From NCBI RefSeq assembly GCF_009914755.1, contig NC_060925.1: a DNA stretch of 64,000 bases; one strand, given 5' to 3'. Below, piece by piece: positions 16,499 through 55,560 of the stretch (the stretch's first letter is position 1; every line of letters begins with the position of its first letter). The position numbers and the translations under genes were made by a program. This stretch comes from the human T2T-CHM13v2.0 reference genome, Homo sapiens. The notes under the pieces are model-generated. The model made no database searches. It was not told the DNA's origin and was given only the letters and a program-made list of their open reading frames with translations.

Positions 16499-16603
16499 GT
16501 AGCCTCCACTTTCTGGGTGGTACCATCTTTGTCTAGACTGAGTGGAGAACTCAGGAAACAGGACTTATAGCTCCATTATGGTGTGTATCAGGCTGAACAT
16601 GGC

Positions 16604-20375: not shown

Positions 20376-21032
<657 letters not shown>

Positions 21033-24466: not shown

Positions 24467-24598
24467 GGACTGCCCTGGTGGAAGAGCATCTTGGTGAAAT
24501 CCAGAACTTGCGCCAGCACCTAGAGGAATCCATCTGCATCAGTGACCACCTACGGGAGCAACTGGAACACCAGCTGGGCTCTACTGCCCATGGAAGTG
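24467..24598 (+). pseudogene. PDE4DIP: PDE4DIP-like exon G
   Basis: GTALVEEHLGEIQNLRQHLEESICISDHLREQLEHQL; cag/gtagg. Confidence 0.92.
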
Positions 24599-25265: not shown

Positions 25266-25385
25266 GATCCACTTCTAACTTCTACAGTCAGGGCCTGGAG
25301 TCCATACCTCAGCTCTGCAATGAGAGCAGAGTCCTCAGGGAAGAAAATTGAAGACTTCAGGCTCAGCTGAGTCATATTTCCAAAG
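25266..25385 (+). pseudogene. PDE4DIP: PDE4DIP-like exon H, premature stop
   Basis: STSNFYSQGLESIPQLCNESRVLREEN*RLQAQLSH; TGA at 25349-25351. Confidence 0.92.
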
Positions 25386-26349: not shown

Positions 26350-26690
26350 CAGTAAGAGATTTAAATGAATACAGTTTGTCAGGCTCAGGTGAATCCTTCC
26401 CCAGAGGACTTACTGAGCCCGCAGCTGTATTTTTAGAGTGTCTTCAATAATCTTTGACAACTTGTGAAGATCAGAGAAGTGCTGCAAGTTCAAAAAAGAA
26501 CAAATATCCCAGTTTTCAAAATAATGAAAGTGATATATTCCAAAAAGAAATCTTGATGTTGATCTTTGTCAAAATTCAAGAATGGATTATTGAACAGATG
26601 GTATGTGAGCACTTGGAAAATGGTGAACATTAGAAACCAGAATTTCTCTAAAAGCAAGGTAGGACAGATTAAGTGGGACGAAAGGTTTTG
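26350..26690 (+). mobile_element. L3/CR1 LINE remnant; boundaries approximate
   Basis: Degenerate CR1 RT-region motifs (aataatctttgacaac, caaatatcccagttttcaaaa). Confidence 0.45.
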
Positions 26691-26876
26691 CAGAGAGAGA
26701 GATGCACCATTCTCCAGGCTGCGGTGGGTGTTGAGCCAGCATGCTCTTCCCCACCAACATAGGGCCTTCCTTCCCTGCTCCTTAGCTGTTTGTCAGGGCA
26801 GATGTGCTTGGGGTCATCTTCCTGCTGAGCTCTGACCCCATGATAATAAATCAATCCTCCGTGTTCCTCTCACCAG

Positions 26877-27066
26877 AGCACTCCCAGGAAATGGAAAGCC
26901 TGAGGGAGGCTCTGCTGTCCTCTCAATCCCACCTTCAATAGCTGGAAAAGGAGCTGGAGCACCAGAAGATGGAAAGGCAGCAACTTTTGGAAGACTTGAG
27001 GGAGAAGCAGCAAGAGTTCTTGCATTTCAGGGAGGATCGTCTTTCCCTCCAGGAAAATGACTCCAG
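26877..27066 (+). pseudogene. PDE4DIP: PDE4DIP-like exon I, premature stop
   Basis: EHSQEMESLREALLSSQSHLQ*LEKELEHQK...LQENDS; TAG at 26939-26941. Confidence 0.92.
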
Positions 27067-27754
27067 GTAAGAGGGGACCCATTGACACAGAAGGTAGCAT
27101 TCTTCATTCTTACATTCATTCTTACATTAGAAGAAGGGATATTGGTAAGACAATTGGTGTCCTCTTTTGGAAACCTCAATGTTCCCTCTGCTATTCCTGA
27201 TTTTTGTGTGTCAGTTGTTGGATAGGAAGGCGCTTTGAGCAGAAGAAAGTACTTCTCTGGGAATGCCTTGTCACTCCCAAGTTGAGAGAGTAAAACTCTG
27301 TTATAGAAATCTTCAGTATATCAGAGACATGACAAGGAAGGGTTCCCATGCTTCCAATTAGGTATAGGACATTAGTCTCACCATCGCCTAGGAAGCTTCT
27401 ATACTGGCTGTGATGCTAGGTCCCATCATAAGCCTTGTAACTGCTTGTCAGAATGAAAAGAGCACTGTAGGAGCAGTAAGGAGACTGTGCTGGTGTATCT
27501 GTTCTGCTCTGAACTAATGTAGGTAATGGTGTGTTTTCAAGCAAAGTTACTTGACCTCCCTCAGCCACCATTTCCACATCTGCAAAATAAAAGTGATGGT
27601 CTTCATGACCCCCTGAGTTGACATCTGGGGCTCAGATGTAACCCTACCCATAAACCTTTATGACCCTCTGAGTTGACATCTGGCTCTCAGCCTGTTGCTC
27701 TGGTGTGGCTGAGTGGCTCTGCCATTTCAGTGGGCCTTGCCGCTCCCTGGTCAG

Positions 27755-27879
27755 ACTGCAGCACAAGCTGGTCCTCCTGCAGCAACAATGTGAAGAGAAA
27801 CAGCAGCTCTTTGAGTCCCTCCAGTCAGAGCTACAAATCCACAAGGCACTTTATGGCAATTCCAAGAAGGGGCTGAAAG
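27755..27879 (+). pseudogene. PDE4DIP: PDE4DIP-like exon J (in-frame alternative acceptor at 27731)
   Basis: RLQHKLVLLQQQCEEKQQLFESLQSELQIHKALYGNSKKGLK. Confidence 0.92.
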
Positions 27880-28084
27880 GTTTGTGTTCTTCTCCCCTTA
27901 CCCCATGAACTTTTTGCTCTTGCATAAGATGCTAGTGAGGTCTTTCCTTTGGGAGTTGTGGAGATCATGGGAAGCTACAGAGTTCTGTCTCAGAAACCCC
28001 ACCCAAGCCTGGGGCTCCCAGTAGGAACTCTCATGCACAAAGCCCAAGGTGACAGGTTGGTAGCACGAGCAAGATCCAGCCTGA

Positions 28085-28455
<371 letters not shown>

Positions 28456-28636
28456 GATTATAACATTTTTTAAAGCAAAAGAACAGTCCTAATGATATCA
28501 TTTGAAAAGGCCTCTAATATTGTCAGTGATACATACTGACAACCCATTCAGCCCAATGTAGCAGGCAGTCTGCTCCCACCCTGACCCTTTCCCTAGTGAC
28601 ATCTGGCTCTCAGCTTATTGCCCTTTCATTTAATTT

Positions 28637-29685
28637 TCATAAATCCTGATTTAGTTTCCTGATTTTCTAAAGAGAAGGTGAACTGGAATTTGAAGAAATA
28701 CAGGGGCTTACCAGGCTCGGTGAATAGCTTAAGTTCAAAGTCATGGTGAGTGTTGAGTCAGTGGGGACCAGCCTGCCCACAGGAGAAAATTAAAAGACAT
28801 GAAAACAAAAAAACTTCATAGAAATACCACTAATAAGACCTAAATTTCAATCCTGGATTTAAATATTAAGGACATTTTTTGAAGACTTTGCTTCCTACTG
28901 AAATAATAATCTAATATTTGAGAATTTTGATATATTTCTTCATTCTTCTTTAAATGGAGGAGAGTACTCAAAACATAACGTTAATAAGTCACAGCAGGCT
29001 GGGACAGAGGGCTGACATCAATGTCATGAAATTTAGCAAAGATTAAAAGCAAAATCCTGAGCTCGATTAAAAGTATCAGTGGTAGAAATATAGGATGAGC
29101 ATAGAAATATAGGACAGGCAGCCATTCATGGACTTCAGGGTTTGGGGTTTGGTAGAAACATGTTCACACAAGAATGGCATAGGCAAAAGGATGCTAGAAA
29201 TACCAGCTCAAAATAACACTACAGTAGTGTAAGTGTGATGTTCACCTGTGGAGACCATGTCTAAAATATTGTTAGATTATGGGGCACCATCTTTGAAAAG
29301 GGCATTGACACACTAGGGAACATAATGAAGACAGGGCGCACAATGGTGTGTACCAGACATCTTGAACTGGTCAAAGAAACTAAAGAAATTTAGGCTTTCA
29401 AAAGATCTTGAGGACATGAGAACTGGCTTCAGATATTTGAAGAACTGTCAAGGTGAAAAAGAACTCATGTATTTTATGTCCCTCCAGAGGGCTAAACAAA
29501 GAGTGAAGGGCAGTGGAATTTAGATTGGAATTATCATAAATCCTGATTTAGTTTCCTGATTTTCTAAAGAGAAGGTGAACTGGAACTTGAAGAAATACAG
29601 AGGGGCTCACCAGGCTGGGAGAATAGCTTAAGTACAAAGTCATGGTGAGTGTTGGGTCAGAGGGACCAGCCTGCCCACAGGAGAA
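28637..29685 (+). repeat. ~150-bp direct repeat; copies 28637-28787 and 29534-29685
   Basis: tcataaatcctgatttagtttcctgattttctaaagagaaggtgaactggaa...gcctgcccacaggagaa occurs twice. Confidence 0.93.
28990..29500 (+). mobile_element. L3/CR1 3' remnant; boundaries approximate
   Basis: ggggcaccatctttgaaaagggcattgacacact and ttcagatatttgaagaactgtca are typical of L3. Confidence 0.55.
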
Positions 29686-30440
29686 GCTTGGGGTTTGGGG
29701 AGTGAGAAGTCAGGATGGTGGAGCAGAGTCATCAAATCTTGAAAGCCCACAGGTCAGGGGGAAAGTTGACATTCTGTACAGTAGATAATGAAACTAAGTC
29801 TGTTCTTTTTCAAAGAAGATAAGTATATGATGAAAACAGAGCTTTCAGATGCTAAGTCTCAGGGGATGTCCTGGAGTTGGGAGACGTTAGAATCTGGGAA
29901 ACCTATTGGATGGGTCTAGTGATATTCTGGCACATTAAGAGATGACAGTCTAATATAAGGTGCTATTGGGAAGATGAAAGGGTATAGATAGATTTAAAAA
30001 CATCTCTTTAAAAAATAAGCAAAATTTAATGAGAACTTGGATTGAGAAAGAGAGAGAGCAACATCACAAAACTTTGGGCAAAATTCAAGAGTAGATTATT
30101 TACCAAAGTCTCTAAAACTAATTCATCCTGAGCTACCTTTCCTTTCATGCTTTTCTCCCTGCCTTTTAGGACTCATTTCAGAGCTACAACCACTAAAGCT
30201 CCATAATCTCTTTTTTTTTTTTTTTTAATTATACTTTAAGTTTTAGGGTACATGTGCACATTGTACAGGTTAGTTACATATGTATACATGTGCCATGCTG
30301 GTGCGCTGCACCCACTAACTCGTCATCTAGCATTAGGTATATCTCCCAATGCTATCCCTCCCCCCTCCCCCCTCCCCACCACAGTCCCCAGAGTGTGATA
30401 TTCCCCTTCCTGTGTCCATGCGATCTCATTGTTCAATTGT

Positions 30441-34291
<3,851 letters not shown>

Positions 34292-34327
34292 TTAGTTGAT
34301 GCAGTTTCTTCCTAGTCTCGATGGTCT

Positions 34328-35344
34328 TTACATTTTGGCATGATTTTGCAGCGGCTGGTACTGGTTGTTCCTTTCCACGTTTAGCGCTTCCTTCAGGAGC
34401 TCTTTTAGGGCAGGCCTGGTGGTGACAAAATCTCTCACCATTTGCTTGTCTGTAAAGTATTTTATTTCTCCTTCACTTATGAAGCTTAGTTTGGCTGGAT
34501 ATGAAATTCTGGGTTGAAAATTCTTTTCTTTAAGAATGTTGAATATTGGCCCCCACTCTCTTCTGGTTTGTAGGGTTTCTGCTGAGAGATCCGCTGTTAG
34601 TCTGATGGGCTTCCCTTTGAGGGTAACCCGACCTTTCTCTCTGGCTGCCCTTAACATTTTTTCCTTCATTTCAACTTTGGTGAATCTGACAATTATGTGT
34701 CTTGGAGTTGCTCTTCTCGAGGAGTATCTTTGTGGCGTTCTCTGTATTTCCTGAATCTGAACGTTGGCCTGCCTTGCTAGATTGGGGAAGTTCTCCTGGA
34801 TAATATCCTGCAGAGTGTTTTCCAACTTGATTCCATTCTCCGCATCACTTTCAGGTACACCAATCAGACGTAGATTTGGTCTTTTCACATAGTCCCTTAT
34901 TTCTTGGAGGCTTTGCTCATTTCTTTTTATTCTTTTGTCTCTAAACTTCCCTTCTCACTTCATTTCATTCATTTCATCTTCCATTGCTGATACCCTTTCT
35001 TCCAGTTGATCGCATCGGCTCCTGAGGCTTCTGCATTCTTCACGTAGTTCTTGAGCCTTGGTTTTCAGCTCCATCAGCTCCTTTAAGCACTTCTCTGTAT
35101 TGGTTATTCTAGTTATACATTCTTCTAAATTTTTTTCGAAGTTTTCAACTTCTTTGCCTTTGGTTTGAATGTCCTCCCATAGCTTAGAGTAATTTGATCA
35201 TCTGAAGCCTTCTTCTCTCAGCTCGTCAAAATCATTCTCCATCCAGCTTTGTTCCGTTGCTGGTGAGGAACTGCGTTCCTTTGGAGGAGGAGAGGCACTC
35301 TGCGTTTTAGAATTTCCAGTTTTTCTGTTCTGTTTTTTCCCCAT
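34328..35344 (-). pseudogene. L1 ORF1p, disrupted
   Basis: 1017-nt span; TGA stops at codon 49 (35200-35198) and codon 130 (34957-34955), both at Arg CGA positions. Confidence 0.93.
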
Positions 35345-36248
35345 CTTTGTGGTTTTATCTACTTTGGGTCTTTGATGATGGTGATGTACAGATGGGTTTT
35401 CGGTGTGGATGTCCTTTCTGTTTGTTAGTTTTCCTTCTAACAGACAGGACCCTCAGCTGCAGGTCTGTTGGAATTCCCTGCCGTGTGAGGTGTCAGTGTG
35501 CCCCTGCTGGGGGGTGCCTCCCAGTTAGGCTGCTCGGGGGTCAGGGGTCAGGGACCCACTTGAGAAGGCAGTCTGCCCGTTCTCAGATCTCCAGCTGCGT
35601 GCTGGGAGAACCACTGCTCTCTTCAAAGCTGTCAGACAGGGACATTTAAGTCTGCAGAGGTTACTGCTGTCTTTTTGTTTGTCTGTGCCCTGCCCCCAGA
35701 GGTGGAGCCTACAGAAGCAGGCAGGCCTCCTTGAGCTGTGATGGGCTCCACCCAGTTCGAGCTTCCCCGCTGCTTTGTTTACCTAAACAAGCCTGGGCAA
35801 TGGCGGGCGCCCCTCCCCCAGCCTCGCTGCCGCCTTGCAGTTTGATCTCAGACTGCTGTGCTAGCAGTCAGCGAGATTCCGTGGGCTTAGGACCCTCCAA
35901 GCCAGGTGTGGGATATAGTCTCGTGGTGCGCTGTTTTTTCAGCCGGTCTGAAAAGCGCAATATTCGGGTGGGAGTGACCCAATTTTCCAGGTGCGTCCGT
36001 CACCCCTTTCTTTGACTCGGAAAGGGAACTCCCTGACCCCTTGTGCTTCCCAGGTGAGGCAATGCCTCGCCCTGCTTCAGCTCACGCACGGTGCGCGCAC
36101 CCACTGGCCTGCGCCCACTGTCTGGCACTCCCTAGTGAGATGAACCCGGTACCTCAGATGGAAATGCAGAAATCACCCTTCTTCTGCGTCGCTCACGCTG
36201 TGAGCTGTAGACCGGAGCTGTTCCTATTCGGCCATCTTGGCTCCTCTC
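35345..36248. promoter_or_regulatory. L1 5'UTR bidirectional promoter; the antisense promoter fires on the + strand
   Basis: Complete CpG-rich L1PA 5'UTR with the YY1 site (gccatcttg on +) near 36231-36239. Confidence 0.8.
35800..36015 (+). CDS. LINE-1 ORF0 (71 aa), intact; expression unknown
   Basis: MAGAPPPASLPPCSLISDCCASSQRDSVGLGPSKPGVGYSLVVRCFFSRSEKRNIRVGVTQFSRCVRHPFL*; strong Kozak gcaATGg; donors CAG|GTGTG after 35905 and CAG|GTGCG after 35990. Confidence 0.8.
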   Translation: MAGAPPPASLPPCSLISDCCASSQRDSVGLGPSKPGVGYSLVVRCFFSRSEKRNIRVGVTQFSRCVRHPFL

Positions 36249-36565
36249 AAGCTCCATAATCTCTTATCTGTAATTTCAAAATCCAGTAAGATCTCCAAAT
36301 TAAATTTTTCAAATAGTCATTTAGTGACAAAATCTAGATGAACTGACAAGAAGATATTCATAAGTCTTTATTTATCTACTTAGAATGTTCACATAGCTCA
36401 TTGCAGAAATAGTTATATGTTTGATTAAGGATTGTGGCTCACCTGCAACTGGGTACATGTTATATACGATATATGCACCCTGTTGCCTTGCTAAAAACTA
36501 AAACAAAATTTACTTTTTGAGATACATTTGGCCTTAAGGTTTTCAGATAAGGGATTGTGGACTTG
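36249..36565. mobile_element. TA-flanked MITE/DNA transposon (MER96B-like); its left TIR is the L1 target site
   Basis: Left TIR aagctccataatctcttatctg matches the reverse complement of right TIR cagataagggattgtggacttg at 17/22; TA at 30194-30195 and 36566-36567. Confidence 0.7.
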
Positions 36566-36632
36566 TAGAATATTTCTTAGATCTCTTCATCCCCAGTACA
36601 AAGAAATAAACTACATGTGGTGAATGGAGGTA

Positions 36633-36935
36633 AATATATATACACATATATATTTTTATATATGCATATATATTTATATATACGCGTATATATTCATATA
36701 TACATGTATATATTTATATATACATGTGTGTATATGTGTGTACATATATATGTACATATATTTCATATATACACATATATAGTATGTATATGCACACAAC
36801 ATATATACACACTATATATAGGTGTATATATGTACACACGTACATATATACATATATACATGTATACACATATACATATATACTGTATACATATATACAT
36901 ATATATACACACAGAGAGAGAGAGAGAGAGAGAGA
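36633..36935. repeat. (TA/CA/TG)n low-complexity tract followed by (GA)n
   Basis: Direct reading. Confidence 0.95.
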
Positions 36936-37425
36936 AGTTGAAAAACTCACTTAGTTATAATCCCTCGTCTAAGTTGCCGAACTCATATCCTCACATGCTA
37001 CCAAAAGGCCTCCTCCTTCTCCTCTTTCATTTTTGAGAGTGAAGACTGTCAAATCTCTTTCTCCTTCATCCCCTACCCTTCTCTAGCTCAGTGCTGACCT
37101 TCTACCTTGGAGGATCCTATACTTTAGCCTACAGGACTAAGGTTACTATGGAGATGAAATATGGACTTATCCTTATCTGCCAATCAAATGCTCTATAGGT
37201 GCATGTGTGTAACTTAAACCACAAAGAAGTTTCAGACTGGATGTGTGCCAGCTCAGTGCCATCCCCAGGCCACACACAGAAATGATGACATGTCCATCAT
37301 AGATGGGTTGCATGAGACTCAGATGATAGTGGGGTCCTTGGCAGAAAAGAGTGTCACAGAGGAGGGTTCTGACAAGTGCTTGGAAATACTTGGGTCAATG
37401 TTACCAGACTCCTCTTCTCTCTTAG

Positions 37426-37665
37426 GTTACAGCCTGGATGCTTGTCACCAAATCCCTTTGAGCAGTGTCCTGAGCCACCTGGTGAGAGAGGTACGAGGTC
37501 TGAGAGGGCAGCTGGAGCAAAGCATTCAGGGGAACAATTGTCTGTGACTGCAGCTGCGACAGCAGCTGGATAGCGGTGCTGGCAAAGCCAGCCTCAGCCC
37601 CTTCTCCATTAACAAGAACTTCCCAGCCAGCACTGACCCTGGAAACAAACAGCTGCTCCTCCAAG
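37426..37665 (+). pseudogene. PDE4DIP: PDE4DIP-like exon K (240 nt, phase 1-1), premature stop
   Basis: YSLDACHQIPLSSVLSHLV...GNNCL*LQLRQQL...KQLLLQ; TGA at 37545-37547. Confidence 0.92.
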
Positions 37666-37814
37666 GTAGGAAGGAAAAGGGACTTAGAAAGCTCTCAGCC
37701 AGTGGGGAGATCACCAGGATGTCTGCAGCAGAAGGTGCAATCTGCCTGGTCTATGCTCCTTAGGGTCAGGTTGAAATCAGAGATGCTCTAGTCTAGCAGC
37801 CTGAGTGAAAGTGT

Positions 37815-38250
37815 GGGATTTAGGCCAGGCCAGGCTCCAGATTCTGAGTTTACCACTTAAAGATCATTTGATTTGGGCAAGGTGTTTAAAGTATCAGAGG
37901 TTTAGGCCTTAGTTTCCTTATATTTAGGATAATAATAATATATACCTTATATGATTTTGAGCATTACATGAAATCATTTACAAATGCTTGGCACACTAAG
38001 AATTGCTCAATAATTAGTAGCTGTATATGTTCATATCTTTTTCTTGGATTTGCTTAGTGCTTTAGTATTAGCGAAGTGTTTTCACATATAGAATTTCATC
38101 TGTAGTAAAGCAGGTTTTGCTGTCTCTATTTCACACAAGAAAACTTAGGTCTTGAGATATTAACAGACAAGCAAGGGTTTAGAGAAGTTATAGACAAAGC
38201 CAGGATCAGAACCAGATGTTGTGATTTTCAGTCTGTGTTCCTTCCAGCTC
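37815..38250. mobile_element. Two MIR fragments in opposite orientation; boundaries approximate
   Basis: gatttgggcaaggtgtttaa..ccttagtttccttatatt and aagaaaacttaggtcttgagatattaac..gccaggatcagaaccag. Confidence 0.6.
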
Positions 38251-39676
38251 ATTGTGTTCTGTCTCAGTATTGCCGACCTTCCCAGATTCTCTAGTCCCCC
38301 TTTCCCTCACAGGTGGGGAACTCAGTGTGTGGCAAAATGTTCCTGCCCTTAAGGAAACAGGGCTCTGGGGAAGTTCTGGACGGTGGGCAATTTATTTCGG
38401 GTGGCCATCATTCACTCTCTACCCCTCCCCTTGCCTGCCTTTTCAGATAGGCGTGTTTGACCAGGACCCCCTTCTCTTCTCGATATCCCCCATCAATCTC
38501 ACTTCTCCCAGTTTTAACTGAAATGTCAATGGTGTCCCCCTAGTCTTAAATCATTCAATTTCTACTTCCTCTGTCTTTTTTTCCTTTTGATACACCATTT
38601 AGTACACCATCTCCACTCACCTCCATGGCCATACCTTCAATTTTATTCAAATCAGGAACCACTGTTTGGTTTCGCTAAAGCTGAGCTTTCACTCTCCTGC
38701 CAGCTATTTCTGGGTCATGTTAATCTTCATTTTTCTCTGGTTCTTGTAGATGCTTGTTTATCTGACAGTAACCTTATTTGTCAAATGAAGGTGACAATAA
38801 CATGATTACGCTGCGTTGGCAATTCAGTGAAAAAACACATGTGGGCCGCCATGCAAACCGCCTGGCTGCCAGGAACTTCTCAGCTTACATTAGGTGGATG
38901 CCTTGCCCTCCTCTGGGCTGCGCTGATAGTTGTGGTGTTCAGTTATGTCTCCAACTCTTCCTTCTAAACAGGCCTTCCCCTCTCACTGGCTTCCCATACA
39001 GCAGCCAAGAAGCCCCACTGGCACAGTCCCTGCCTCTCTTTCTCTAGCACTCCCGAGGCCTGAGCCAGAAAGCAGGCACTGGGCAACACTTGCCTGAGCA
39101 GGACCTTTTCTACCTTCTTTGTGATATTTTCCTATTCCTCTACCATAGGGTTGCTTTTTAGTCTCCAGCAAGACAATGTTAACCCACCAAGACTTCCATC
39201 TCCGTTCTTTAGACACAAGTACATTTTTTTCAGTATTACCCTCATCAGAATGATGGCTAGAAAGTTGAGTTTAGTCCCCCATGAATCCTTTTATTATTTG
39301 ATTCTACATTTTAATATGTACTATGTATATTTATACATATTACATTTAGTTACAGGGCATCGTATTAGATACCACACAGAGATTATACTCAAGACTTGGT
39401 TTATAAAAATACACCTAATAATTTTTCAAACTAGAGGTTACTTTCTCATGGAACATCCCTCAATTAAAGGAATATCTTTTTGTTCTGAAGAATGGAAACA
39501 TTCTGAACTCAGTGACTCGTGGGATTTTGCTTTTCTTTTGCTTGTGGCGTGCGCATAATTCTGTAAGAGGAGAGTCCTGCCACCTTAGGCCTCAGTGGGG
39601 ATGGCTAGGTGTGCATGTGCTTCATGTGCAGTGTGTTCCAGGGCTCCTGAAAACTGTGGTTGCCTTTACTCCCCAG

Positions 39677-39793
39677 ATTCAGCTGTGTCCCCTCCAGTCT
39701 GGGATGTTGGTATGAATTCCCCAGCTCTGGTCCTCCCCAGCTCTGTTTCCTCTACTCCTGGCTCAGAAACAGCCATAATCAACAGAACAAATG
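39677..39793 (+). pseudogene. PDE4DIP: PDE4DIP-like exon L, donor lost
   Basis: DSAVSPPVWDVGMNSPALV...IINRTN; followed by CTAAAT instead of GT. Confidence 0.9.
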
Positions 39794-40361
39794 CTAAATA
39801 TGGCAACTAAAGGGCCCAGGGACTGATGATGGAAAGTGATTAACGCAAACAACCTTTTTTTGTCTCTAAACATATTATCTGTATTTAGAGAGTTTTCTCT
39901 GCATGCCCCAAGGCCTTTAGCCCTACTCACTGCACCTTCTGTGGCTGGCTTTCTTGCCATTATTCATCCTCCAATAGTTTTCCTATTGCTGTTTTTGCTT
40001 CATTGCACCATAATCTCTCCATTCTTGAAAATGTTCTCTGTATCCAGCTTGATTTCCTTGTCTGTGTCTTCTCTACCCAGAAACTTATTATTTATTATGA
40101 TTTGTCCTATTTCATTAGCCAATAAGGAAAAAATTGTCTCCTGGAAAATTTATCTTTAAGACATAATGTAAGAAAGATTATAAAAATATAGAAGCCAGAA
40201 GATCTCTATGGACTTTGCCCCAGCCTTGCACATTCCAAGGCTTCCTTTCTTGCTCCAAGCCTCTTCCTTTTCTTGTTCCCTGCCTCTTTTGAGTTGGAGC
40301 AAACTGAGGATATCATTATGAATAACAGAAGATTCCATTGTGTTGTCATTTTCTTTTTCAG

Positions 40362-40588
40362 GCTTGGGTTTGGATACTTCTCCAGTAATGAAGACCGCTC
40401 CCAAGCTGGAGAGTGATGCTACTGATGGCCCCTTTGCCAATAAGAATGGCCGCCATGTCATTGGCCACATTGATGACTACAGTGCCCTAAGACAGCAGGT
40501 TGCAGAAGGCAAGCTGCTGGTCAAAAAGATAGTGTCTCTTGTGAGATCAGCATGCAGCTTCCCTGGCCTTGAAGCCCAAGGCACAGAG
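40362..40588 (+). pseudogene. PDE4DIP: PDE4DIP-like exon M (phase 1-0), open
   Basis: GLGLDTSPVMKTAPKLE...NGRHVIGHIDDYSALRQQ...EAQGTE; cag/gtaat. Confidence 0.93.
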
Positions 40589-41508
40589 GTAATCACACCT
40601 GTAGGTTTAGGTGCACTCTTTCCCTGTGCCCTTTCTTCCTTTGATGTTAACTGCTTCACCCACAATTTTTGTTTTTTTCTTTTTTTCATGCTTTGCCTTC
40701 CTCTTCCATGTATAGCAGCCAGGCCCTTTCTTCTCTATCTCCTATTTTCACTCTGAGTTCTGCTCTGTTCCAGATGTAGCTGACTGGATATTTCCCCTCA
40801 GCCCCACAGAAACACGTGGCATTGCCTAGCAGCCTTTGGTAGCTTATTATCTACTGCAGTCATGCAGGCACATGACCATCTGTGGGCACAGTCGACTCAA
40901 TGGGATGGACAGAAACTGAAGGATTTGCAGGTATATGGCCCCCATATGTGGAAGGGGTGAGAAGTCTGGCAGCCATGGCATTTCCTTGTGCAGACTGCAT
41001 AGGGAGAGGGAAGGCAGGCAGCAAAGCTTGTCAGAGCACCTTGCCAGTGAGAGAGACCAGGCACCATGGCTGTGCTGTCTGAGCTGCTGGAGACCCATGA
41101 ATGCATAGGAGCAGCCCTGTCTCCACGGAACCCCCACACTAGAGGACAAGACACACACCCAAGTAGATAAGCACAGTAAGGGGCTACAGGCACAGTATGA
41201 GAAGTCATCCCTATGCTGTGAGAGCGCCGATGCAAATGTGGTCATTTATCTCAGGCGAGGAAGGTAACAGGTTCATAGAGGACACAGCAAGTGGGGTGAG
41301 TTTTGAAAGCCTTGTGGGTTCTGCAGGTGGAGAAAGGCATACCTGGTAAAGGGAGCAGCACCTTAGTTCTGAGTGCTGCAAATGGTTGTGAGAGGGCTTC
41401 ACAGGTTCAAGCAGGCCCATGTTCTGTGCCTCACTCACAAAGGAAACTTGAGCCCATGCAGGGGGAAGAAAGTAATCTCTCCACTTCTGTGGTGTTACCT
41501 TTCCCCAG

Positions 41509-41652
41509 GAGCTTGGCAGCAAAGGCATTCATGAGCTTCAGAGCAGCACCAGTGCCCTGCACCATGCCCTAGAGGAGTTGGCTTCCCTCCTCACCATGTT
41601 CTGGAGAGCAGCCCTGCCAAGGACCCACATCCCTGTGATGCCTGGCAAAGTG
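41509..41652 (+). pseudogene. PDE4DIP: PDE4DIP-like exon N (phase 0-0), donor lost
   Basis: ELGSKGIHELQSSTSALHHALEELASLLTMFWRAALP...PGKV; followed by GAAAGA instead of GT. Confidence 0.9.
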
Positions 41653-42739
41653 GAAAGATGCCAGTGTCCTTTCTTGGTTCAAACCCAGTTCTCCTGCCCT
41701 CTAATACTGTTCTTTCTCCTCAATGTCACAGCTTTTCCAGAAAATCAGGAGCCACATAGTAAGTTGGGATAGACAGAAACTTAGAGGAGTGTCCCTGGAG
41801 GGACATCTCTGGCCCATGGTGGCTGCTTTCATTGCAGCTCTAAATACATCCCATTCCCTGCCAGCCCCCTGGCCCCTGGATAAGAAATCAAAGAAGAATA
41901 GGAAGGGGTGTGGAGAAGGCAGAGACATCATAACCCTGGCAATCCATAAATGTTCAGTTTCTTTACCTCTCTGAAATTTGGCTGAGATGAAATTAAGTGA
42001 AAGCTTCAGCACCCATCTCCCACCCCTCAGGTCCCATGGTCAAATGATCACAGAATGCCCCCATGAGACTGAGCCTTTTTAGCCACTGCCTGGAATCCCT
42101 GCATATCACTTAAGCTGGCCTCTCTGGACCAGGCCTGGGGAAAGTCAGCCACCCCTCAGGATCTGTTCAGAGCTCAGGCTAACTCTGATTGGCAGACCCT
42201 CATGTAGGCAGGTTTCAGGATCCCCTCCCCAGGGATTCTAACTCCAGATCAATGTCACCAATACCTTTTGGATCCAACTATGCTAATTCCAGGGAGACGG
42301 TGTTTTGCCATCTTCATGTTGGCACAAATATTTACAAACTTGCAAACTTGCCTGAGTCCAGATCTCTCTCTCCAGCATAACATTTCTGAACTCTCAATCT
42401 TACCTGTGAAGGGAGAGTGACAGAACTGATATCAGGACTAAAGCAAGGTCCTCTTCAGATTTGGGAGCTTTATACCAGCCTGAAGTGAGGTTCTCTTAAG
42501 CTAAAGGTGTGTAGGCCTGTGCTAGTCTGCATGGGGAATTCCAGAGTCTCAATACTCCTGCCTAATGGCCTCATCCGAAACTGTCCTCAGCTGGAAGTAT
42601 TCGAGGCTGTGAAGGAGGAAATCCATTTCAGGAGAGTGGAGAAGATTGTAGAATCCTTCTTTGAATTGGAAAGAGCCACAAAGCACAGGGTGCTTTAGGC
42701 CTTCTGCCTGTTCAGTAAGAGTCTGTACCTCTTATCAAG

Positions 42740-42878
42740 GGAGAATTGACAGAAAGGGAACTTCTGGAACTGAGAACCAAAGTATCCAAACAGGAGTGGC
42801 TCCTTCAAAGCATAGCTGAGCATCTGAAGACCGCCAACCAGCAGAAGGAGAGCATGGAGCAGTTCATCATCAGCCAGC
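42740..42878 (+). pseudogene. PDE4DIP: PDE4DIP-like exon O (CM2 motif, N-terminal part), open
   Basis: GELTERELLELRTKVSKQE...NQQKESMEQFIISQ; aag/gtagg. Confidence 0.92.
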
Positions 42879-43181
42879 GTAGGTTCCCTGAGAGGGAATG
42901 GGGGAAGAAACAGGCAGTCTTCCCGATGCCCCACTTGTGCTGCAGATGAGCAGTGACCAGGGGGGCTTGGGGATGTTGGGAGTTGAGACTGATTTGATGT
43001 CCCCAAACCTCCTGTGCCATGAGCAATTGTGGATGCAGAGGAGAGGAGGATGGGGTGGATAGCAGGAGACTCCAAGCTGAATGGCCAGAAAGAAATAAAT
43101 GCTTTAGAATTCTCATGCTAAGCAAGTAGGGTTAATTTTTGCTGGTGATTTCTACTCTGTGGTGCTCTTTTGTTGTTTCAG

Positions 43182-43228
43182 TAACCAGAACACATGATGT
43201 TTTAAAGAAGGCAAGCACTAACTTAGAG
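43182..43228 (+). pseudogene. PDE4DIP: PDE4DIP-like exon P (CM2 core), open
   Basis: LTRTHDVLKKASTNLE; cag/gtaag. Confidence 0.92.
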
Positions 43229-44905
43229 GTAAGGAAACTACTGCAGCAGTCAGAGGCACCAAGCCTGTCCCCAACCCATTGCCATCCGTTAGCATATCTT
43301 GTAGGTGACCCTTGGCCTGCTTTGGCCTTCCAGGAGAAGATTTTGGGTCCACTTGCAAGATCACAGGTCCTCAGTGAGCATCCTGCTAATTTCTGTTCCC
43401 ATCACTCTCTCACCCTGTCAGCTCCTGCCCCAGTATTTTGGTTCACTCTCACATTGTCGTCATCTCTCCTTTTTACTCCAATTTTTCTTCTTTGATGCCA
43501 AGTCAGGAGACTGGAGAAATGCAATTCAGCTCACTCTCAAAGTCATTAGACATCCGGAAGTCTGCCTCTGAATGAGCTTTTGGTAGAGGGATCTTGAGGC
43601 CAGTTATGTGGTCTAGTCTTCATGAAAAAGTAAAAGCAATTTGCAACCTAATAAACTGATTTCACTGCACACTCCTGTGTTAAGAACAGCAATTTGATTT
43701 TGATATATCTTTAAGAAACATGACAAAAGAGATCTGTTGGGTCTCATTGGTCTAAAAGAGAATTTGTTAATAAATAACAACTGAATCTTAAGGGGAAAAA
43801 TGTTATATATGTACCACATATTCTCTACATTTACTTAAAACACTAAGTGTTAACCGTTCCCTAGGAAGTGCTTTGAAGAAAAACTTGAGGTATATGAATG
43901 GTTTAAAAATCAGAAACTAAACCTTTTAACGTGGACTTCAAAGCTTTGCCATAAGCAATTGAGCATATTCCTAGAAATATTTCTAAACTGTAACCTGAGA
44001 GAATGTTGATCTCCATAGTGTGAAAATAGTGTGAAAATGACTTGGGCCAGTTTAACTTGCTCTTTTTTTTTTTTTTTTTTTCACTAACTCCCTTTTGTTT
44101 TTCTCTGATAATTCTTCTCTTTCCTAGGCCTCTTTAGAGCAACACTTACAGGATTGCCTCTGTAAAGCCTTATTCCTGTCCCAGGAAAGGTAACCCAAAA
44201 AGTCTCTTGTATCCACTAAAAGGTAACCCAAAAGTCTCTAGTATCCACTGGCTTTCTCCAGTGTGGAAGCTTTCCCCTCCACCTCCCATAGATCACTGGA
44301 AAGGACCCGAGGCCTCGGTTCTAATCCCTGGCTTATCACTAACTGCTGTGTGGCCTTGGCTTGTCCTTTAATCTCTATGAGACTGCTGCACCCTTATCTG
44401 TCAAAGATGGAACTGGACTTAGTTGAGCTCTGAGGTCCCTGTGGACTTGGCCCCTCCACACCCTCATTGTGGCAACTGGACATAAACTTAACAGAGGACC
44501 CCCCTGCAAAATGTCCTCTTCTTTCTACAACAGGCTGTTTCTGTATGTGCATGTTTCATGCTAAGCACTTCTTTCTTGGGTGGACTTGGCAAAGCCCTCT
44601 TTCTGCTGAGACAGTGATTTGGAGAGTCACCTGGCCCCTGAAGAGGGAGTGGTAGGATCCAGCCACCCAGTGTGCAGTGAATCGGAGCAGGGATCTCAGC
44701 ACACAGGGAGGTGGGGAGGCTCCCCCTAACCTCAGGCACCTGTTGTTCTTCGAGACTGCAACGCATGCTCTTAGCTCATCCTCTTAACTGGCTCTCACCG
44801 TGCTCCTGTCTTTAGTCACCCCATAGCTCTCACTCCAGCTTCAGGTAGCCATCAGTAGGGCCTGGCAATATACACTGATTTGGTTTGTTTTATTTTTGTC
44901 TGCAG

Positions 44906-45975
44906 GTGAAATCCCTAAGAGCTCTGCCATGTACTCCTTGTGACCCTTGCCTTCCAGGAACCATGCAAGAAGCGCAGCCACCAGAAGTCCTTAAAACAGC
45001 AGGAAACGTGGGCCTGTCCCCCTTTTGTGCAGCTACCTATCTGCTGAGGAGCTTCTGGGCCTCATTCCTCCAAGTCCACGGGAGGGTCCAGAAGAGGGGG
45101 TCAGAGATGTATCCTGGTGGAGCTGGGAGAAAACCAGAAAGCCTTTCTGACAGCTATGGAATACCGTTAGCCAAGGTCCACTTGGCCCAGCACTAAGCAA
45201 AAGATGCGTAGTTTGCATAGAAGGTTTTGTGATACTGCTTCCCAACAGCCCCAGCAGCTTGGGAACTAGCAACAACACATTTCTTGCCTCATCAGCTGTC
45301 CTGAGATGGAAAACTCAGTGGATATAGGACCCTGATTACGATGAATGGGGCACATGGTCCCAATGCTGGAGCTCCTCTGGCAGGTTCTAAAAGCACACTA
45401 CTGAGCAGCGGTGCCCTGCTGGACACTGCTGGCAGGGGCTCAGTGAGCACTACTCACAGATCCACACCTGACCCTGTTGGGTCCAGTCAGACTGGGCCTT
45501 GGTCTGCACTGTAGCACCTGTGTTCTTTGAGTTCACATCATGAATGTGACTTCCCAGATACCATTTCAGGCTTAACCTAGCACATCCTATTTCTTTTCTT
45601 CTATGATATCCAAATTGGACTGACCTCACTTCAAATACTCTGTCCCATTTTGTCACCCTGTCTTACCTCAGGGAAATTGGGGACTGATGGCCAGACCAAT
45701 TCTGTTGAAATTCTTGCATAGAGCAAACCTGTGCTGATTTTTAAGTGGCATGGGAGAGGCCCCCAGCCACAGTAAAGCCTAGTCTGTGTCTTCACAGTGT
45801 TGATAGAATCTGCTTGTGTGTATAAATGTATGATATAGATTTACATATGTTGCTATCGCCATATATTGAAGGCCAACATAACTGGTGGACAGGGTAGGTG
45901 AGAGAAAATGAAAGTCTTTTTGGTGATTATTAAAGCAAAATGTGTATAAAGAAATAAATAGTTTTTCTTTCACTG
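44906..45975 (+). pseudogene. PDE4DIP: PDE4DIP-like terminal exon and 3'UTR (alternative acceptor at 44958)
   Basis: VKSLRALPCTP then a frameshift; the alternative acceptor gives EPCKKRSHQKSLKQQETWACPPFVQLPIC* (44958-45047). Confidence 0.88.
45953..45958 (+). terminator. Polyadenylation signal AATAAA of the PDE4DIP copy
   Basis: AATAAA followed by T-rich sequence at the end of the 3'UTR-like region; ATTAAA at 45929 as well. Confidence 0.75.
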
Positions 45976-46529: not shown

Positions 46530-49390
46530 TAGAAGGTGGAGTAAGATGGTAGAATAGAATTCTCCAGCAATGGTGTCTCTGAAGGAACATCAAATTGAAC
46601 AACTATCTATGTAAGAAAACAATTTCACAAAGGCTAATCAGGTGAGAGATCATAGCAGCTGGTTTTAACATGATAACAAGAAAAGATGCATTGAAGAAGG
46701 GAGGACGGACACTTTTCCATTGCCTATGACACCTCTCCCCCAACCACAGGAAATGCATCTCCGAGAGAGAATCTAATGGCTTGGGGACAAGGAGGAAAGT
46801 GTGGGACTTTATATTGAAACTTAGTACCAGTCTTGCCATAGTGACACATGGCACTGGACAAAACCCCACAGCACTTGATTCCAGGCTGGTGCCCACAAAA
46901 GAAGCATTTAGACCCACTCTGGGCCACAAGGGAATCAGATGCCCCAGCAGGAAGAACCCACCAAAGTTCTGGCCGGCTTTATCTCTGGAAATTTATTGGG
47001 CTACAAATAAATTTCAGTGGCAGCCAGGCTGTAGTTCAGAGGTGACAGCATGCTGGCAGCCCTCACAGCCCTCGCTCACTCTCGGTGCCTCCTCGGCCTC
47101 GGTGCCCATTCTGGCCGCACTTGAGGAGCCCTTCGGCCCGCCACTACACCACGGGAGCCCTTCTCTGGGCTGGCTGAGGCAGGAGCCGGCTCCGTCGGCT
47201 TGTGGGGAGGTGTGAAGGGAGAGGCATGGGTGGAAACCGGGCTGTGTGAGACACTTGGGGGCTAGCTGGAGTTCCGGGTGGGCATGGGCTTGGCGGCCCC
47301 GCAATCGGAGCGGGACTTAGCACCCTGGGCAGCAGCTGCGGAGGGTGCGCCGGGTGCCCCAGCAGTGCTGGCCCACCAGTGCTGTGCTCGATTTCTCCCT
47401 GGGCCTTAGCTGCCTCCCTGCGGGGCAGGGCTCCGGACCTGCAGCCCGCCATGCCTCAGTCCCCCACAGTGGGCTCCTGCACGGCCTGAGCCTCCCCAAG
47501 GAGCGCCGCCTCCTGCTCCATGGCTCCAGGTCCCATCAACCGCCCAAGGGCTGAGGAGTGCGGGTGCATGGCGTGGGACTGGCAGGCAGCTCCACCTGCG
47601 GCCCTGGTGCGAGATCCACTGGGCGAAGCCAGCTGGGCTCCTCAGTCTAGTGGGGACTTGGGAGAAACTTTATGTCTAGCTAAGGGATTATGAATACACC
47701 AGTCAGCACTCTGTATCTAGCTCAAGGTTTGTAAATGCACCAATCAGCATCCTGTGTCTAGCTCAGGGTTTGTGGATGCACTCTGTATCTAGCTAATCTG
47801 GTGGGGACTTGGAGAATCTTTATGTCTAGCTAAGGGATTGTGAATGCACCAATTGGCACTCTGTATCTAGCTCAAGGTTTGTAAATGCACCAATCAGCAC
47901 TCTGTGTCTAGCTCAGGGTTTGTAAATACACCAATCAACACTCTGTATCTAGCTTATCTAGTGGGGACGTGGATAACTTTTGTGTCTAGCTCAGGGATTG
48001 TAAAGGCACCAGTCAGCACCCTGTCAAAACAAACCAATCAGCTCTCTGTAAAACAGACCAATTGGTTCTCTGTAAAATGGACCAATCAGCAGGATGTGGG
48101 TGGGGCCAGATAAGGGACTAAAAGCAGGCTGCCCAGCCAGAAGCGGCAACCTGCTCAGGTCCCCTTCCACGCTGTGGAAAGTTTGTTCTTTTGCTCTTTG
48201 CAATAAATCTAGCTGCTGCTCACTCTTTCGGTCCACACTGCCTTTATGAGCTGTGACACTCACTGCGAAGGTCTGCAGCTTCACTCCTGAGCCAGTGAGA
48301 CCACCAACCCACGAGAAGGAAGAAACCCCGAAGACATCCGAACATCAGAAGGAAAAAACTCTGGACACGCCACCTTTAAGAACTGTAATACCCACCGTGA
48401 GGGTCCGTGGCTTCATTCTTGAAGTCAGTGAGACCAAGAACCCACCAATTCCAGACACATAGTGACTGCAGTCCTTGGGCAAGCCCTGAAGCTGCATAGG
48501 TCTGGAAGACCCTAGACTTGAGGTGTAAGCCAGTACGACAGCAGCAGGGCAGCAGCTATGGGAATGTCTGTATCACCCCTCCTCACACTCCAGGCAGTGC
48601 AGCCTGAAGAGAGATTCCTTTTGCTTGGGGGAAAGAAAGGGAAGTAAGCTAGAGGCTTTACCTAGGAATGTAGAGAACAATCCCTGAACTTCCCCAAGTC
48701 CACAGGGCTGGGGACCTAGGAATCTATAAGAATTGCAGTGTACCTGGGCTTTGAATGCCCTGTAGTATAAGAATGGCTGCAGTGATCACTGGCTTAGGGA
48801 ACTCGTCAGCCCACTTTGAATTCCTGGAAGGTCCTCTGAAGGACAGGTACAAACAAGACCTGACTGCAAAGGCTGGAATAAATACCATATTCTCCAATGC
48901 CCAGATATTGACCAACATCTACAGTATCAATAACATTTAAGTCAATATGACCTCAACAAATGGACCAAGTAAGGCACCCAGTGACCAACCCTGGAGAGGT
49001 GGAGATGTGTAACCTCTCAGGGAATTCAGAATAGCTATTTTGAGAAAGCTCAATGAACTTCAGGGAAACACAGAGAAGCAATTCAGAAATATATCAGAAA
49101 TTTAACAAGGATACTGAAGTAATAGAAAAAAATCAAACAAATCCTGGGCTGGAAAATGCATTAGTGGGTCTCAGTAGAACTGATCAAGCAGCAGAAAGAA
49201 TTAGTGAGCATGAAAACAAGCTATTTGAAAATACAGTCAGAGGAGAAAAAAGAAAAGAAGAACGAGAAGGAACACAGAATGCTTAAGAGATCTAGAAGAG
49301 GGCCTCAAAAGAGAAAATCAAAGATTCATTGGCCTTAAAGAGACGGTTGAGAAGGAGCAAAGAGTAGAACCCTTATTCAAAGAAATAATC
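46530..49390 (+). mobile_element. Old L1 (L1M/L1MA-type) 5'UTR and ORF1 fragment hosting LTR12
   Basis: ggagtaagatgg 5' end; degenerate ORF1 (gaattcagaatagctattttgagaaagctcaatgaac...cttattcaaagaaataat). Confidence 0.7.
47036..48459 (+). mobile_element. LTR12 (HERV9) solo LTR, LTR12C/D-like
   Basis: t(c)agaggtgacagc...cccaccaattccagacaca; tandem CCAAT-containing U3 repeats 47680-48090; AATAAA at 48202; 4-bp TSD TAGT at 47032-47035 and 48460-48463. Confidence 0.95.

Positions 49391-55560
<6,170 letters not shown>

What the first reader, a model, noticed from the sequence alone, without database searches (positions are those of the whole stretch)
35345..45958. Possible revival of a headless pseudogene: L1 antisense promoter and intact ORF0 are in splice phase with the myomegalin C-terminal (CM2) exons
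Seen: the PDE4DIP copy has no promoter or 5' exons. The intronic L1PA2-type element is on the minus strand, so its antisense promoter and ORF0 (ATG 35800, strong Kozak, 71 aa, intact although ORF1/ORF2 are dead) point along the remaining exons. ORF0 donor 1 (CAG|GTGTG after 35905) leaves 106 coding nt (phase 1), and the next three acceptors (37426, 39677, 40362) are all phase 1. Splicing to 37426 gives a 75-aa fusion ending at TGA 37545. The path 35905>40362-40588>42740-42878>43182-43228>44958 skips the damaged exons K, L and N in frame and gives a stop-free 202-aa ORF0::myomegalin protein with the CM2 motif, ending before AATAAA 45953. The 44906 acceptor would give 269 aa. Established: ORF0 is known to splice into downstream host exons to form fusion proteins, and CM2 is the C-terminal targeting motif of the Cnn/CDK5RAP2/myomegalin family. 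Inference: a CM2-only protein could compete with myomegalin. Expression is not shown, and the nearest acceptor gives the short, probably NMD-sensitive product.
Basis: partly seen in the sequence, partly recalled or inferred. Interest (0 to 1): 0.85.

Follow-up and report, generated by a model that had tools for sequence, protein, structure and literature searches.

The report
L1 ORF0 beside myomegalin pseudogene exons
A young L1 jumping gene sits inside an old, decaying partial copy of the myomegalin gene so that its small antisense gene could in principle splice in frame onto the leftover exons, but this looks like a chance arrangement and nothing shows the fusion protein is made.

Summary
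Every coordinate and number in the finding reproduces. These are the intact 71-aa ORF0 (35800-36015), donors after 35905 and 35990, AG acceptors at all the named positions, and the 75-, 202- and 269-aa products.

The context argues against a revival:
- The L1 (30211-36248, minus strand, 16-nt target-site duplication) is a private insertion. It is absent from the 4 paralogs that keep this intron.
- The host is the most diverged of six PDE4DIP 3' copies. Its exons have diverged exactly as much as its introns, 5.25% each.
- Exons K, L and N are multiples of 3, so the "three phase-1 acceptors" are a single coincidence of about 1 in 3.
- Intact ORF0 is the norm: 150 of 150 scored genomic copies are open.
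- Every path that includes K, the nearest strong acceptor, stops at 75 aa. Only 10 of 256 enumerated paths reach the native C-terminus, and all of them skip K.

- a private upstream ATG at 35741, found in 0 of 20 other L1 copies;
- a weakened exon-O acceptor, AAG against CAG in 5 of 5 paralogs;
- loss of an Arg that myomegalin and CDK5RAP2 share in the CM2 region.

No expression data could be examined.

Verdict: the geometry is real, it is probably coincidental, and function is unlikely.

The parts
30211..36248 (-). Full-length young L1 (L1PA2 grade) with a 16-nt A tail (30211-30226). The 5'UTR spans 35345-36248 and ORF1 starts at 35344.
   Evidence: An ORF2 piece is 99% identical to 39 of 39 other scored copies. 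The 3'UTR diagnostic triplet reads GAG. ORF1 has 2 in-frame stops; ORF2 has a frameshift and a stop.
30196..30211 (.). Left target-site duplication, AAGCTCCATAATCTCT.
   Evidence: The same 16-mer occurs at 36249-36264. The empty site is contiguous in 4 paralogs.
36249..36264 (.). Right target-site duplication.
35741..35845 (+). Private upstream ATG with G at -3 and G at +4. It opens a 34-codon uORF in another frame that overlaps the ORF0 start.
   Evidence: One search lists the ORF. One search shows 0 of 20 other L1 copies with ATG here (19 GTG, 1 variant).
35800..36015 (+). L1 ORF0, 71 codons, intact.
   Evidence: It is 92-93% identical in protein to most other genomic copies.
35903..35911 (+). 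ORF0 splice donor 1, CAG|GTGTGG (exon end 35905, phase 1).
   Evidence: The same 9-mer occurs in 18 of 20 other L1 copies.
35988..35996 (+). ORF0 splice donor 2, CAG|GTGCGT (exon end 35990, phase 2).
   Evidence: None of the 128 paths from this donor reaches the native C-terminus.
37426..37665 (+). Pseudogene exon K (240 nt) with a strong acceptor and an in-frame TGA at 37543-37545.
   Evidence: The parent and the 120.50 copy read CGA. The TGA is shared with the 144.63 and 146.71 copies.
39677..39709 (+). Exon L (33 nt), open, with both splice sites present.
40362..40588 (+). Exon M (227 nt), open, entered in phase 1.
   Evidence: tblastn against the CDK5RAP2 C-terminal region gives E 8.5e-9.
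41509..41654 (+). Exon N (41509-41652, 144 nt), open. Its donor dinucleotide at 41653-41654 reads GA instead of GT.
   Evidence: GT is present in 5 of 5 paralogs.
42740..42878 (+). Exon O (139 nt), the first part of the CM2 region. Its acceptor is AAG|G in this copy.
   Evidence: 5 of 5 paralogs read CAG|G. The RefSeq model LOC112268273 starts inside this exon at 42811 (hub table).
43182..43228 (+). Exon P (47 nt), the second part of the CM2 region. The window reads ...KKASTNLE.
   Evidence: The parent reads KKARTNLE and CDK5RAP2 reads RKARGNLE.
44958..45958 (+). Terminal exon Q: native-frame stop at 45045-45047, 3'UTR, ATTAAA at 45929 and AATAAA at 45953. An alternative acceptor lies at 44906.

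Best explanation
This is a chance juxtaposition, not a revived gene.

**The host.** It is an old, unprocessed, 5'-truncated duplicate of the PDE4DIP (myomegalin) 3' end. The duplicate spans window 13403 onward and is the most diverged of six copies. It has been decaying neutrally.

**The insertion.** Much later, an L1PA2-grade L1 inserted by target-primed reverse transcription. It entered the intron upstream of exon K, antisense to the pseudogene. As a result its 5'UTR antisense promoter, ORF0 and two donors point down the remaining exons.

**The phase match.** SD1 is in phase 1 and so are exons K, L and M. This is one coincidence of about 1 in 3.

**Most likely products (inferred).** If the antisense promoter fires at all, for example in hypomethylated cells, I expect two main RNAs:
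- an unspliced RNA encoding the ordinary 71-aa ORF0 peptide, which could end at the poly(A) signals just beyond the L1 (36299, 36605);
- an SD1/SD2-to-K chimera that stops at 75 aa with junctions downstream, making it a likely target of nonsense-mediated decay.

The K-skipping isoforms of 202 or 213 aa would be minor at best. They would also be poorly translated and carry a degraded CM2 region. No function as a competitor of myomegalin is expected.

**Shown:** the anatomy, the privacy of the insertion, the neutral divergence and the lesions.
**Inferred:** splicing preferences, decay of the chimera and silencing of the promoter.
For: - **Private insertion.** 4 of the 5 paralogs examined have the empty site with flanks contiguous. 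The fifth (147.78) lacks this region altogether. The L1 has a 16-nt target-site duplication and an A tail.
- **Young L1.** An ORF2 piece is 99% identical to 39 of 39 other scored copies. The 3'UTR triplet reads GAG.
- **Old host.** The host shows 5.3-6.1% substitutions against every other copy. Those copies differ from each other by 0.9-4.7%.
- **Neutral decay.**
  - Exon divergence is 5.25% and intron divergence is 5.25%.
  - There are 0 exon indels, against 0.93 expected if only one lineage contributes, giving P0 = 0.39.
  - P(no new stop in L-Q) is 0.35-0.58.
  - K has a nonsense codon and N has lost its donor.
- **ORF0 intactness is ordinary.** 150 of 150 scored copies are open, out of 8642 candidates.
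- **The K block.** Of 256 enumerated paths, every one that includes K ends at 75 aa with the stop far upstream of the last junction. Only 10 reach the native C-terminus, and all 10 use SD1 and skip K.
- **Handicaps specific to this copy.**
  - The upstream ATG at 35741 is present in 0 of 20 other L1s.
  - The exon-O acceptor is AAG against CAG in 5 of 5 paralogs.
  - The Arg in KAR.NLE is replaced by Ser.
  - 7 of 62 residues encoded by O+P differ from the parent.
- **Base rate.** ORF0-exon fusions were seen at 57 of about 3200 ORF0 loci (passage in Criscione 2016).
Against: - Every element needed for an ORF0 fusion is physically intact. The ATG context, SD1 and SD2 match 17-18 of 20 other L1 copies.
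- L, M, N, O, P and Q are all open in the native frame.
- Loss of the N donor would favour clean in-frame skipping of N.
- The stop of the 202- and 213-aa isoforms lies in the last exon, so they would escape nonsense-mediated decay.
- RefSeq predicts a spliced lncRNA (LOC112268273) that uses the O donor, exon P and the 44958 acceptor. Its 5' end is truncated inside exon O (hub table). Some transcription through these exons may therefore exist, and its promoter is unknown.
- dN/dS against the parent is 0.45-0.52. This does not by itself prove full neutrality.
- The joint chance of L-Q staying open (about 0.06-0.23) is lowish.
- No RNA, CAGE, methylation or proteomic data were available to me.
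Confidence: 0.8

Rival explanations
1. The L1 antisense promoter is the real promoter of a low-level chimeric non-coding RNA at this locus. The predicted lncRNA LOC112268273 (O-P-Q) would be its 3' part. The RNA is spliced from SD1 or SD2 through K and the later exons and has no protein function.
For: - The RefSeq model begins inside exon O at 42811, so it is 5'-incomplete (hub table).
- The copy has no promoter of its own. Homology starts at 13403, and the parent's CM1 exon lies far upstream of the matching point.
- L1PA2-8 antisense promoters do drive spliced chimeras with neighbouring exons (passages in Criscione 2016).
- The donors are intact.
Against: - No read joins the L1 to any exon in anything I could see.
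- The model is predicted, and it could rest on reads from the 95%-identical paralogs.
- LOC112268273 occurs in 0 papers of the library.
- Upstream pseudogene exons (13403-30200), or read-through from elsewhere, could supply the transcript instead.
Confidence: 0.15
2. In hypomethylated cells the antisense promoter produces an ORF0::myomegalin C-terminal protein of 202 or 213 aa. Its CM2 region takes it to the Golgi or centrosome, where it competes with myomegalin.
For: - The in-frame paths exist and end in the last exon.
- N skipping is favoured by the loss of its donor.
- The C-terminal part of the long myomegalin isoform localises to the centrosome and Golgi (passages in Roubin 2012).
- ORF0 fusions are documented in principle (passages).
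Against: - K must be skipped although its sites look strong.
- The exon-O acceptor is weakened to AAG.
- The private uORF overlaps the ORF0 start.
- The conserved Arg is lost, and 7 of 62 residues encoded by O+P have changed.
- The 48 residues of N, just upstream of the CM2 region, would be missing.
- Exons diverge as fast as introns.
- The insertion is private and recent, and the phase match is a 1-in-3 event.
- The locus is pericentromeric.
Confidence: 0.04

Closest known systems
L1 ORF0-host exon fusion loci (Denli et al. 2015, Cell 163:583). The paper is not held. It is known here only through passages in Criscione 2016, Honda 2020 and Hancks & Kazazian 2016.
   Same: A primate L1 5'UTR with an intact antisense ORF0 of 71 codons and two donors inside ORF0. 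A same-strand downstream exon lies in a compatible phase.
   Different: No transcript, footprint or peptide is shown for this locus. The target is a decaying pseudogene, not a gene. The nearest exon carries a stop. A private upstream ATG precedes ORF0.
L1 antisense-promoter chimeric transcripts (Speek 2001, not held; the Criscione 2016 catalogue of 988).
   Same: An intronic L1PA2-8/L1HS 5'UTR whose antisense promoter points along host exons.
   Different: This L1 is not in that catalogue. Its supplements list only one PDE4DIP entry, an EST from an L1PB1 at other coordinates. The catalogue was built on hg19, where this pericentromeric copy may not be represented.
CM2-bearing C-terminus of myomegalin/CDK5RAP2/Cnn (Wang 2010, recalled and cited within Roubin 2012; Roubin 2012 passages).
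   Same: Exons K, M, N and P are collinear with C-terminal exons of CDK5RAP2 (E 1.5e-5, 8.5e-9, 0.037 and 0.012). They are about 95% identical in DNA to the parent copy, which is fully open to its stop.
   Different: The window copy has a nonsense codon in K, no N donor, and Ser in place of an Arg shared by both paralogs. Exon O alone gave no significant match to CDK5RAP2. No Pfam or PDB model of CM2 was hit.
Unprocessed (duplicated) pseudogenes of the 1q21/1p11 segmental duplications (PDE4DIPP family).
   Same: Introns are retained, the copy is 5'-truncated, it carries disabling lesions, and its divergence matches that of its introns.
   Different: It carries a private young L1 that adds a potential promoter and start codon.

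Membership tests
L1 ORF0 fusion locus | Young primate L1 5'UTR with an intact ORF0 (ATG, about 71 codons, stop). | tested here: met
   The protein is 92-93% identical to most other genomic ORF0 copies.
L1 ORF0 fusion locus | The two splice donors inside ORF0 are intact. | tested here: met
   Both 9-mers are identical to 18 of 20 other copies.
L1 ORF0 fusion locus | A downstream same-strand exon whose acceptor phase continues an open frame. | tested here: met
   SD1 enters K, L or M in the native frame. The frame through K stops after 39 further codons. SD2 never gives the native frame (0 of 128 paths).
L1 ORF0 fusion locus | An observed chimeric RNA, or translation of the fusion. | not testable with these tools
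   No RNA, CAGE, Ribo-seq or MS data were available. There are 0 papers for LOC112268273, and the locus is not in the Criscione supplements.
CM2-containing Cnn/CDK5RAP2/myomegalin C-terminus | Homology to the C-terminal exons of myomegalin and CDK5RAP2. | tested here: met
CM2-containing Cnn/CDK5RAP2/myomegalin C-terminus | Conserved CM2 residues are retained. | tested here: inconclusive
   7 of 62 residues encoded by O+P differ from the parent. The Arg shared by the parent and CDK5RAP2 in KAR.NLE is Ser here. No CM2 profile was available.
CM2-containing Cnn/CDK5RAP2/myomegalin C-terminus | Targeting to the Golgi or centrosome. | not testable with these tools
   This needs cell biology.
Unprocessed duplicated pseudogene | Introns retained, truncated, carrying disabling lesions, with exons diverging like introns. 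| tested here: met
L1PA2 subfamily | Very low divergence from other young copies, and a non-Ta/pre-Ta 3'UTR triplet. The rule for this diagnostic is recalled, not taken from a call. | tested here: met
   No repeat library was available, so L1PA3 is not formally excluded.

The most novel reading that the evidence does not exclude
A hominid-specific L1PA2 insertion has given a 20-million-year-old headless myomegalin fragment a promoter, a start codon and an in-frame donor. In hypomethylated cells (early embryo, germline, tumours) it would then make a small ORF0::CM2 protein that docks at the Golgi or centrosome and modulates myomegalin/AKAP450-dependent microtubule nucleation.
Probability: 0.04. 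Interest if true: 0.6.

Novelty: new member of a known kind. Interest (0 to 1): 0.25.

Why it matters
If the fusion were made, it would be a clean example of a transposon reviving a dead gene fragment. It would sit in the 1q21/pericentromeric duplication zone, which has already yielded human-specific genes. On the evidence here, it is better used as a worked example of how easily such in-frame geometries arise by chance, and of which checks deflate them:
- whether the insertion is private to the copy;
- whether the intervening exons are multiples of 3;
- whether exons and introns have diverged equally;
- whether the nearest acceptor leads to a stop;
- whether a private upstream ATG is present.

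Tried and rejected
- **Pfam.** A scan of ORF0 and of exons K, M, N and O gave no family above its cut-off.
- **PDB.** A sequence search with exon O gave only designed-repeat hits at E = 1.3.
- **ESM Atlas.** A search with exon M was uninformative, with recognition below the threshold.
- **Own genome.** A protein search with exon O found the six chr1 copies only, and not CDK5RAP2. I then ran a local tblastn on 80 kb of chr9. K, M, N and P matched collinearly. O did not match significantly (E = 81-188).
- **dN/dS against the parent.** The result, 0.45-0.52, is inconclusive because it mixes two lineages and rests on about 43 substitutions.
- **Literature.**
  - 'PDE4DIP' plus 'L1 antisense promoter' gave 0 papers.
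  - 'L1 ASP' plus 'transcription initiation sites' plus 'antisense' gave 0 papers.
  - LOC112268273 gave 0 occurrences. PDE4DIPP names appear only in expression lists that I did not open.
  - Denli 2015 and Speek 2001 are not held. The positions of antisense start sites therefore rest on Criscione's passages: within the first 600 bp, with the primary site at about 400 bp. If most starts lie near L1 position 400, many transcripts would lack the ORF0 ATG, which is at position 449 of this copy.
- **Considered and rejected.**
  - That the L1 was inherited from the parent gene. The empty sites rule this out.
  - That ORF0 intactness signals selection. It is expected by chance.
- **Not done.** Splice sites were not scored with a trained model, because none was available.

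Full report
**1. The observation**

- ORF0 runs from ATG 35800 to TGA 36013-36015. It has 71 codons, with G at -3 and G at +4.
- CAG|GTGTGG follows 35905, which gives 106 coding nt and phase 1. CAG|GTGCGT follows 35990, which gives phase 2.
- An AG precedes each of 37426, 39677, 40362, 42740, 43182, 44906 and 44958.
- In-silico splicing reproduces the 75-aa product (stop 37543-37545). It also reproduces the 202-aa product (stop 45045-45047, in the last exon) and the 269-aa product through 44906.
- ATTAAA at 45929 and AATAAA at 45953 follow.
- On the minus strand, L1 ORF1 has two in-frame stops. ORF2 has at least one frameshift and one in-frame stop.

**2. What the L1 is**

- It spans 30211-36248 on the minus strand. 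It has a 16-nt A tail and a perfect 16-nt target-site duplication at 30196-30211 and 36249-36264.
- A 1.2-kb ORF2 piece is 99% identical to 39 of 39 other scored genomic copies. Forty copies were scored, including the window's own, out of 6408 first-look candidates.
- The triplet after the motif at 30322-30337 reads GAG. By a rule I recall rather than tested, that excludes the human-specific Ta and pre-Ta groups. 'L1PA2-type' is therefore reasonable, although no repeat library was available.
- The 5'UTR still has 33 CpGs, with an observed/expected ratio of 0.46.

**3. What the host is**

The window's own genome holds six close copies of exon M on chr1. Exon K has five copies and exon O has six.

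Only the copy at 145.69 Mb is open through K-L-M-N-O-P-Q to a stop. It also has a Pfam Cnn_1N (CM1) exon 138 kb upstream on the same strand. I take this copy to be the functional PDE4DIP. No tool returned the name.

The other copies are damaged:
- The 120.50 copy has a nonsense codon near its end.
- The 144.63 and 146.71 copies share the K stop and carry a 1-nt deletion.
- The 146.71 and 147.78 copies have lost the donor of exon P.
- The 147.78 copy lacks K and everything upstream of it.

Exons K, M, N and P of the window match the C-terminal exons of CDK5RAP2 on chr9 in collinear order (E 1.5e-5, 8.5e-9, 0.037 and 0.012 in an 80-kb target). Exon O did not match significantly. Passages of Roubin 2012 place CM2 at the C-terminus of the three long myomegalin isoforms. 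They also report that the C-terminal part localises to the centrosome and Golgi.

The window's homology to the parent locus starts at 13403 (blast rows under 400 nt were dropped). 'Headless' is therefore correct.

**4. History**

- The L1 is absent from 4 of the 5 paralogs examined. In those four, the flanks are contiguous across the empty site. The fifth lacks the region altogether (rows under 200 nt were dropped). The insertion is therefore private to this copy.
- Over 5.4 kb common to all six copies, the window copy differs from each other copy by 5.3-6.1%. The other copies differ among themselves by 0.9-4.7%. At a recalled primate substitution rate, this makes the duplicate roughly 20-25 Myr old, far older than an L1PA2-grade insertion.
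- The phase match was therefore never part of the parent gene. It arose when the L1 landed.

**5. Is it more than chance?**

- K (240 nt), L (33 nt) and N (144 nt) are multiples of 3. The 'three phase-1 acceptors' are therefore one coincidence of about 1 in 3.
- An intact ORF0 beside dead ORF1 and ORF2 is expected. Four disabling lesions in about 4.8 kb predict 0.18 lesions in 216 nt, so P(0) is about 0.84 (my arithmetic).
- 150 of 150 scored genomic ORF0 copies are open. These are the top-scoring of 8642 candidates, so the sample is biased towards good copies.
- Between the window and the parent, exon divergence (31 of 590 nt, 5.25%) equals intron divergence (250 of 4761 nt, 5.25%).
- The absence of exon indels has P = 0.39 if only one lineage contributes and P = 0.16 at the full rate.
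- Random placement of the observed 32 substitutions leaves L-Q stop-free in 35% of trials. With half that number of substitutions the figure is 58%.
- dN/dS is 0.45-0.52. It is uninformative, because the parent lineage is under constraint.
- Overall, the host behaves as a neutrally decaying pseudogene.

**6. Which products are likely?**

I enumerated 2 donors x 64 subsets of the internal exons K-P x 2 terminal acceptors, which gives 256 paths.
- 48 paths put the stop in or near the last exon.
- 10 paths end with the native C-terminus. All 10 use SD1 and all skip K.
- 0 of the 128 SD2 paths end with the native C-terminus.
- Every path that contains K stops at 75 aa with junctions downstream.

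K is the nearest acceptor, 1.5 kb away. Its splice sites look strong: a pyrimidine-rich tract followed by TAG|G, and the donor AAG|GTAGGA.

SD1-L-M-O-P-Q therefore gives 213 aa and is as good a route as the 202-aa one. N is open but its donor is GA where 5 of 5 paralogs have GT.

Other features count against the long products.
- The exon-O acceptor is AAG|G here, against CAG|G in 5 of 5 paralogs.
- Poly(A) signals at 36299 and 36605, just beyond the L1, could end unspliced ORF0 RNAs.

**7. Handicaps in the L1 leader and in CM2**

I compared the window with 20 other L1 5'UTRs. These were the ten best rows plus ten that I picked from the block of equal-scoring rows, so it is not a random sample.
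- The window shares the ATG context with 17 of 20, SD1 with 18 of 20, SD2 with 18 of 20 and the stop with 20 of 20.
- It has 9 private sites in 35600-36249.
- One private site creates an ATG at 35741, present in 0 of 20 other copies. It has G at -3 and G at +4. It opens a 34-codon uORF in another frame that ends at 35845, beyond the ORF0 ATG.
- Transcripts that start upstream of 35741 would therefore initiate ORF0 poorly.
- Passages of Criscione 2016 place antisense start sites within the first 600 bp, with the primary site near 400 bp. A start near 400 would lie downstream of the ORF0 ATG, which is at L1 position 449 in this copy. That start site is EST-based, and ESTs are often 5'-truncated.

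In the protein:
- M differs from the parent at 5 of 76 residues.
- O+P differ at 7 of 62 residues.
- Q differs at 1 of 29 residues.
- In exon P, the window reads KKASTNLE, the parent reads KKARTNLE and CDK5RAP2 reads RKARGNLE. An Arg shared by both human paralogs has been lost.

**8. Expression**

I had no RNA, CAGE, methylation or proteomic data.
- The hub table lists a predicted lncRNA, LOC112268273. It uses the O donor, exon P and the 44958 acceptor, and it starts inside exon O at 42811. It shows neither a link to the L1 nor the absence of one.
- LOC112268273 occurs in no paper of the library.
- The Criscione supplements contain one PDE4DIP entry, an EST from an L1PB1 at other hg19 coordinates. 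They do not contain this element.
- The same paper's text reports that ORF0-exon fusions were observed at 57 of about 3200 ORF0 loci.
- Denli 2015 and its supplementary tables could not be read. They may bear on whether this locus was seen.

**9. Verdict**

The geometry is real and correctly described.

The best-supported reading, at confidence 0.8, has three parts:
- This is a chance juxtaposition of a private L1PA2-grade insertion with a neutrally decaying, headless PDE4DIP 3' duplicate.
- Any antisense transcripts mostly give the ordinary ORF0 peptide, or a K-containing chimera that is prone to nonsense-mediated decay.
- A functional ORF0::CM2 protein is unlikely, at about 0.04.

At most it is a new, unproven member of the known class of ORF0 / L1-antisense-promoter fusion loci.

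Noticed in passing
window 35741-35845 (+): A private G-to-A change in the L1 5'UTR creates an upstream ATG in good context. The 34-codon uORF it opens overlaps the ORF0 start. 0 of 20 other L1 copies have this ATG.
   Followed up: yes
G000 chr1 145556551(+) / 145898046(-) and 120291181(+) / 120633562(-): There are four CM1 (Pfam Cnn_1N) exons on chr1. They form two inverted pairs with equal scores within each pair, which suggests large palindromic duplications of the PDE4DIP 5' part in 1q21 and 1p11.
   Followed up: no
paralogs at chr1 146.71 Mb and 147.78 Mb (L017/L018, L009/L010): Both have the exon-P donor changed from GT to TT. The 147.78 copy also lacks exon K and everything upstream of about window 39585.
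   Followed up: partly
paralog at chr1 120.50 Mb (L015/L016): It differs from the presumed functional copy by only 0.9%. It carries a nonsense codon (W to stop) 11 codons before the normal end of the last exon.
   Followed up: partly
window 44906-44957: The window copy lacks 4 nt (CCAG) that are present in all 5 paralogs, inside the alternative 5' extension of the last exon. The 269-aa frame through the 44906 acceptor is therefore specific to this copy.
   Followed up: partly
window 36626-36942: A long (TA)/(CA)-rich simple repeat, ending in a (GA) run, lies between the L1 and exon K, within the would-be first intron.
   Followed up: no
window 48460-55554: A second L1-like element lies downstream of the pseudogene. 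It is collinear with an element at the parent locus (87.9% identity), so it predates the duplication, unlike the L1 at 30211-36248.
   Followed up: no
G000 chr1 148346535, 143594036, 120420359, 145768964, 119848806, 147706779 and chr3 36617428: There are distant matches (67-72% identity) to exon M elsewhere. They may be NBPF-type or older PDE4DIP-derived exons. I did not examine them.
   Followed up: no
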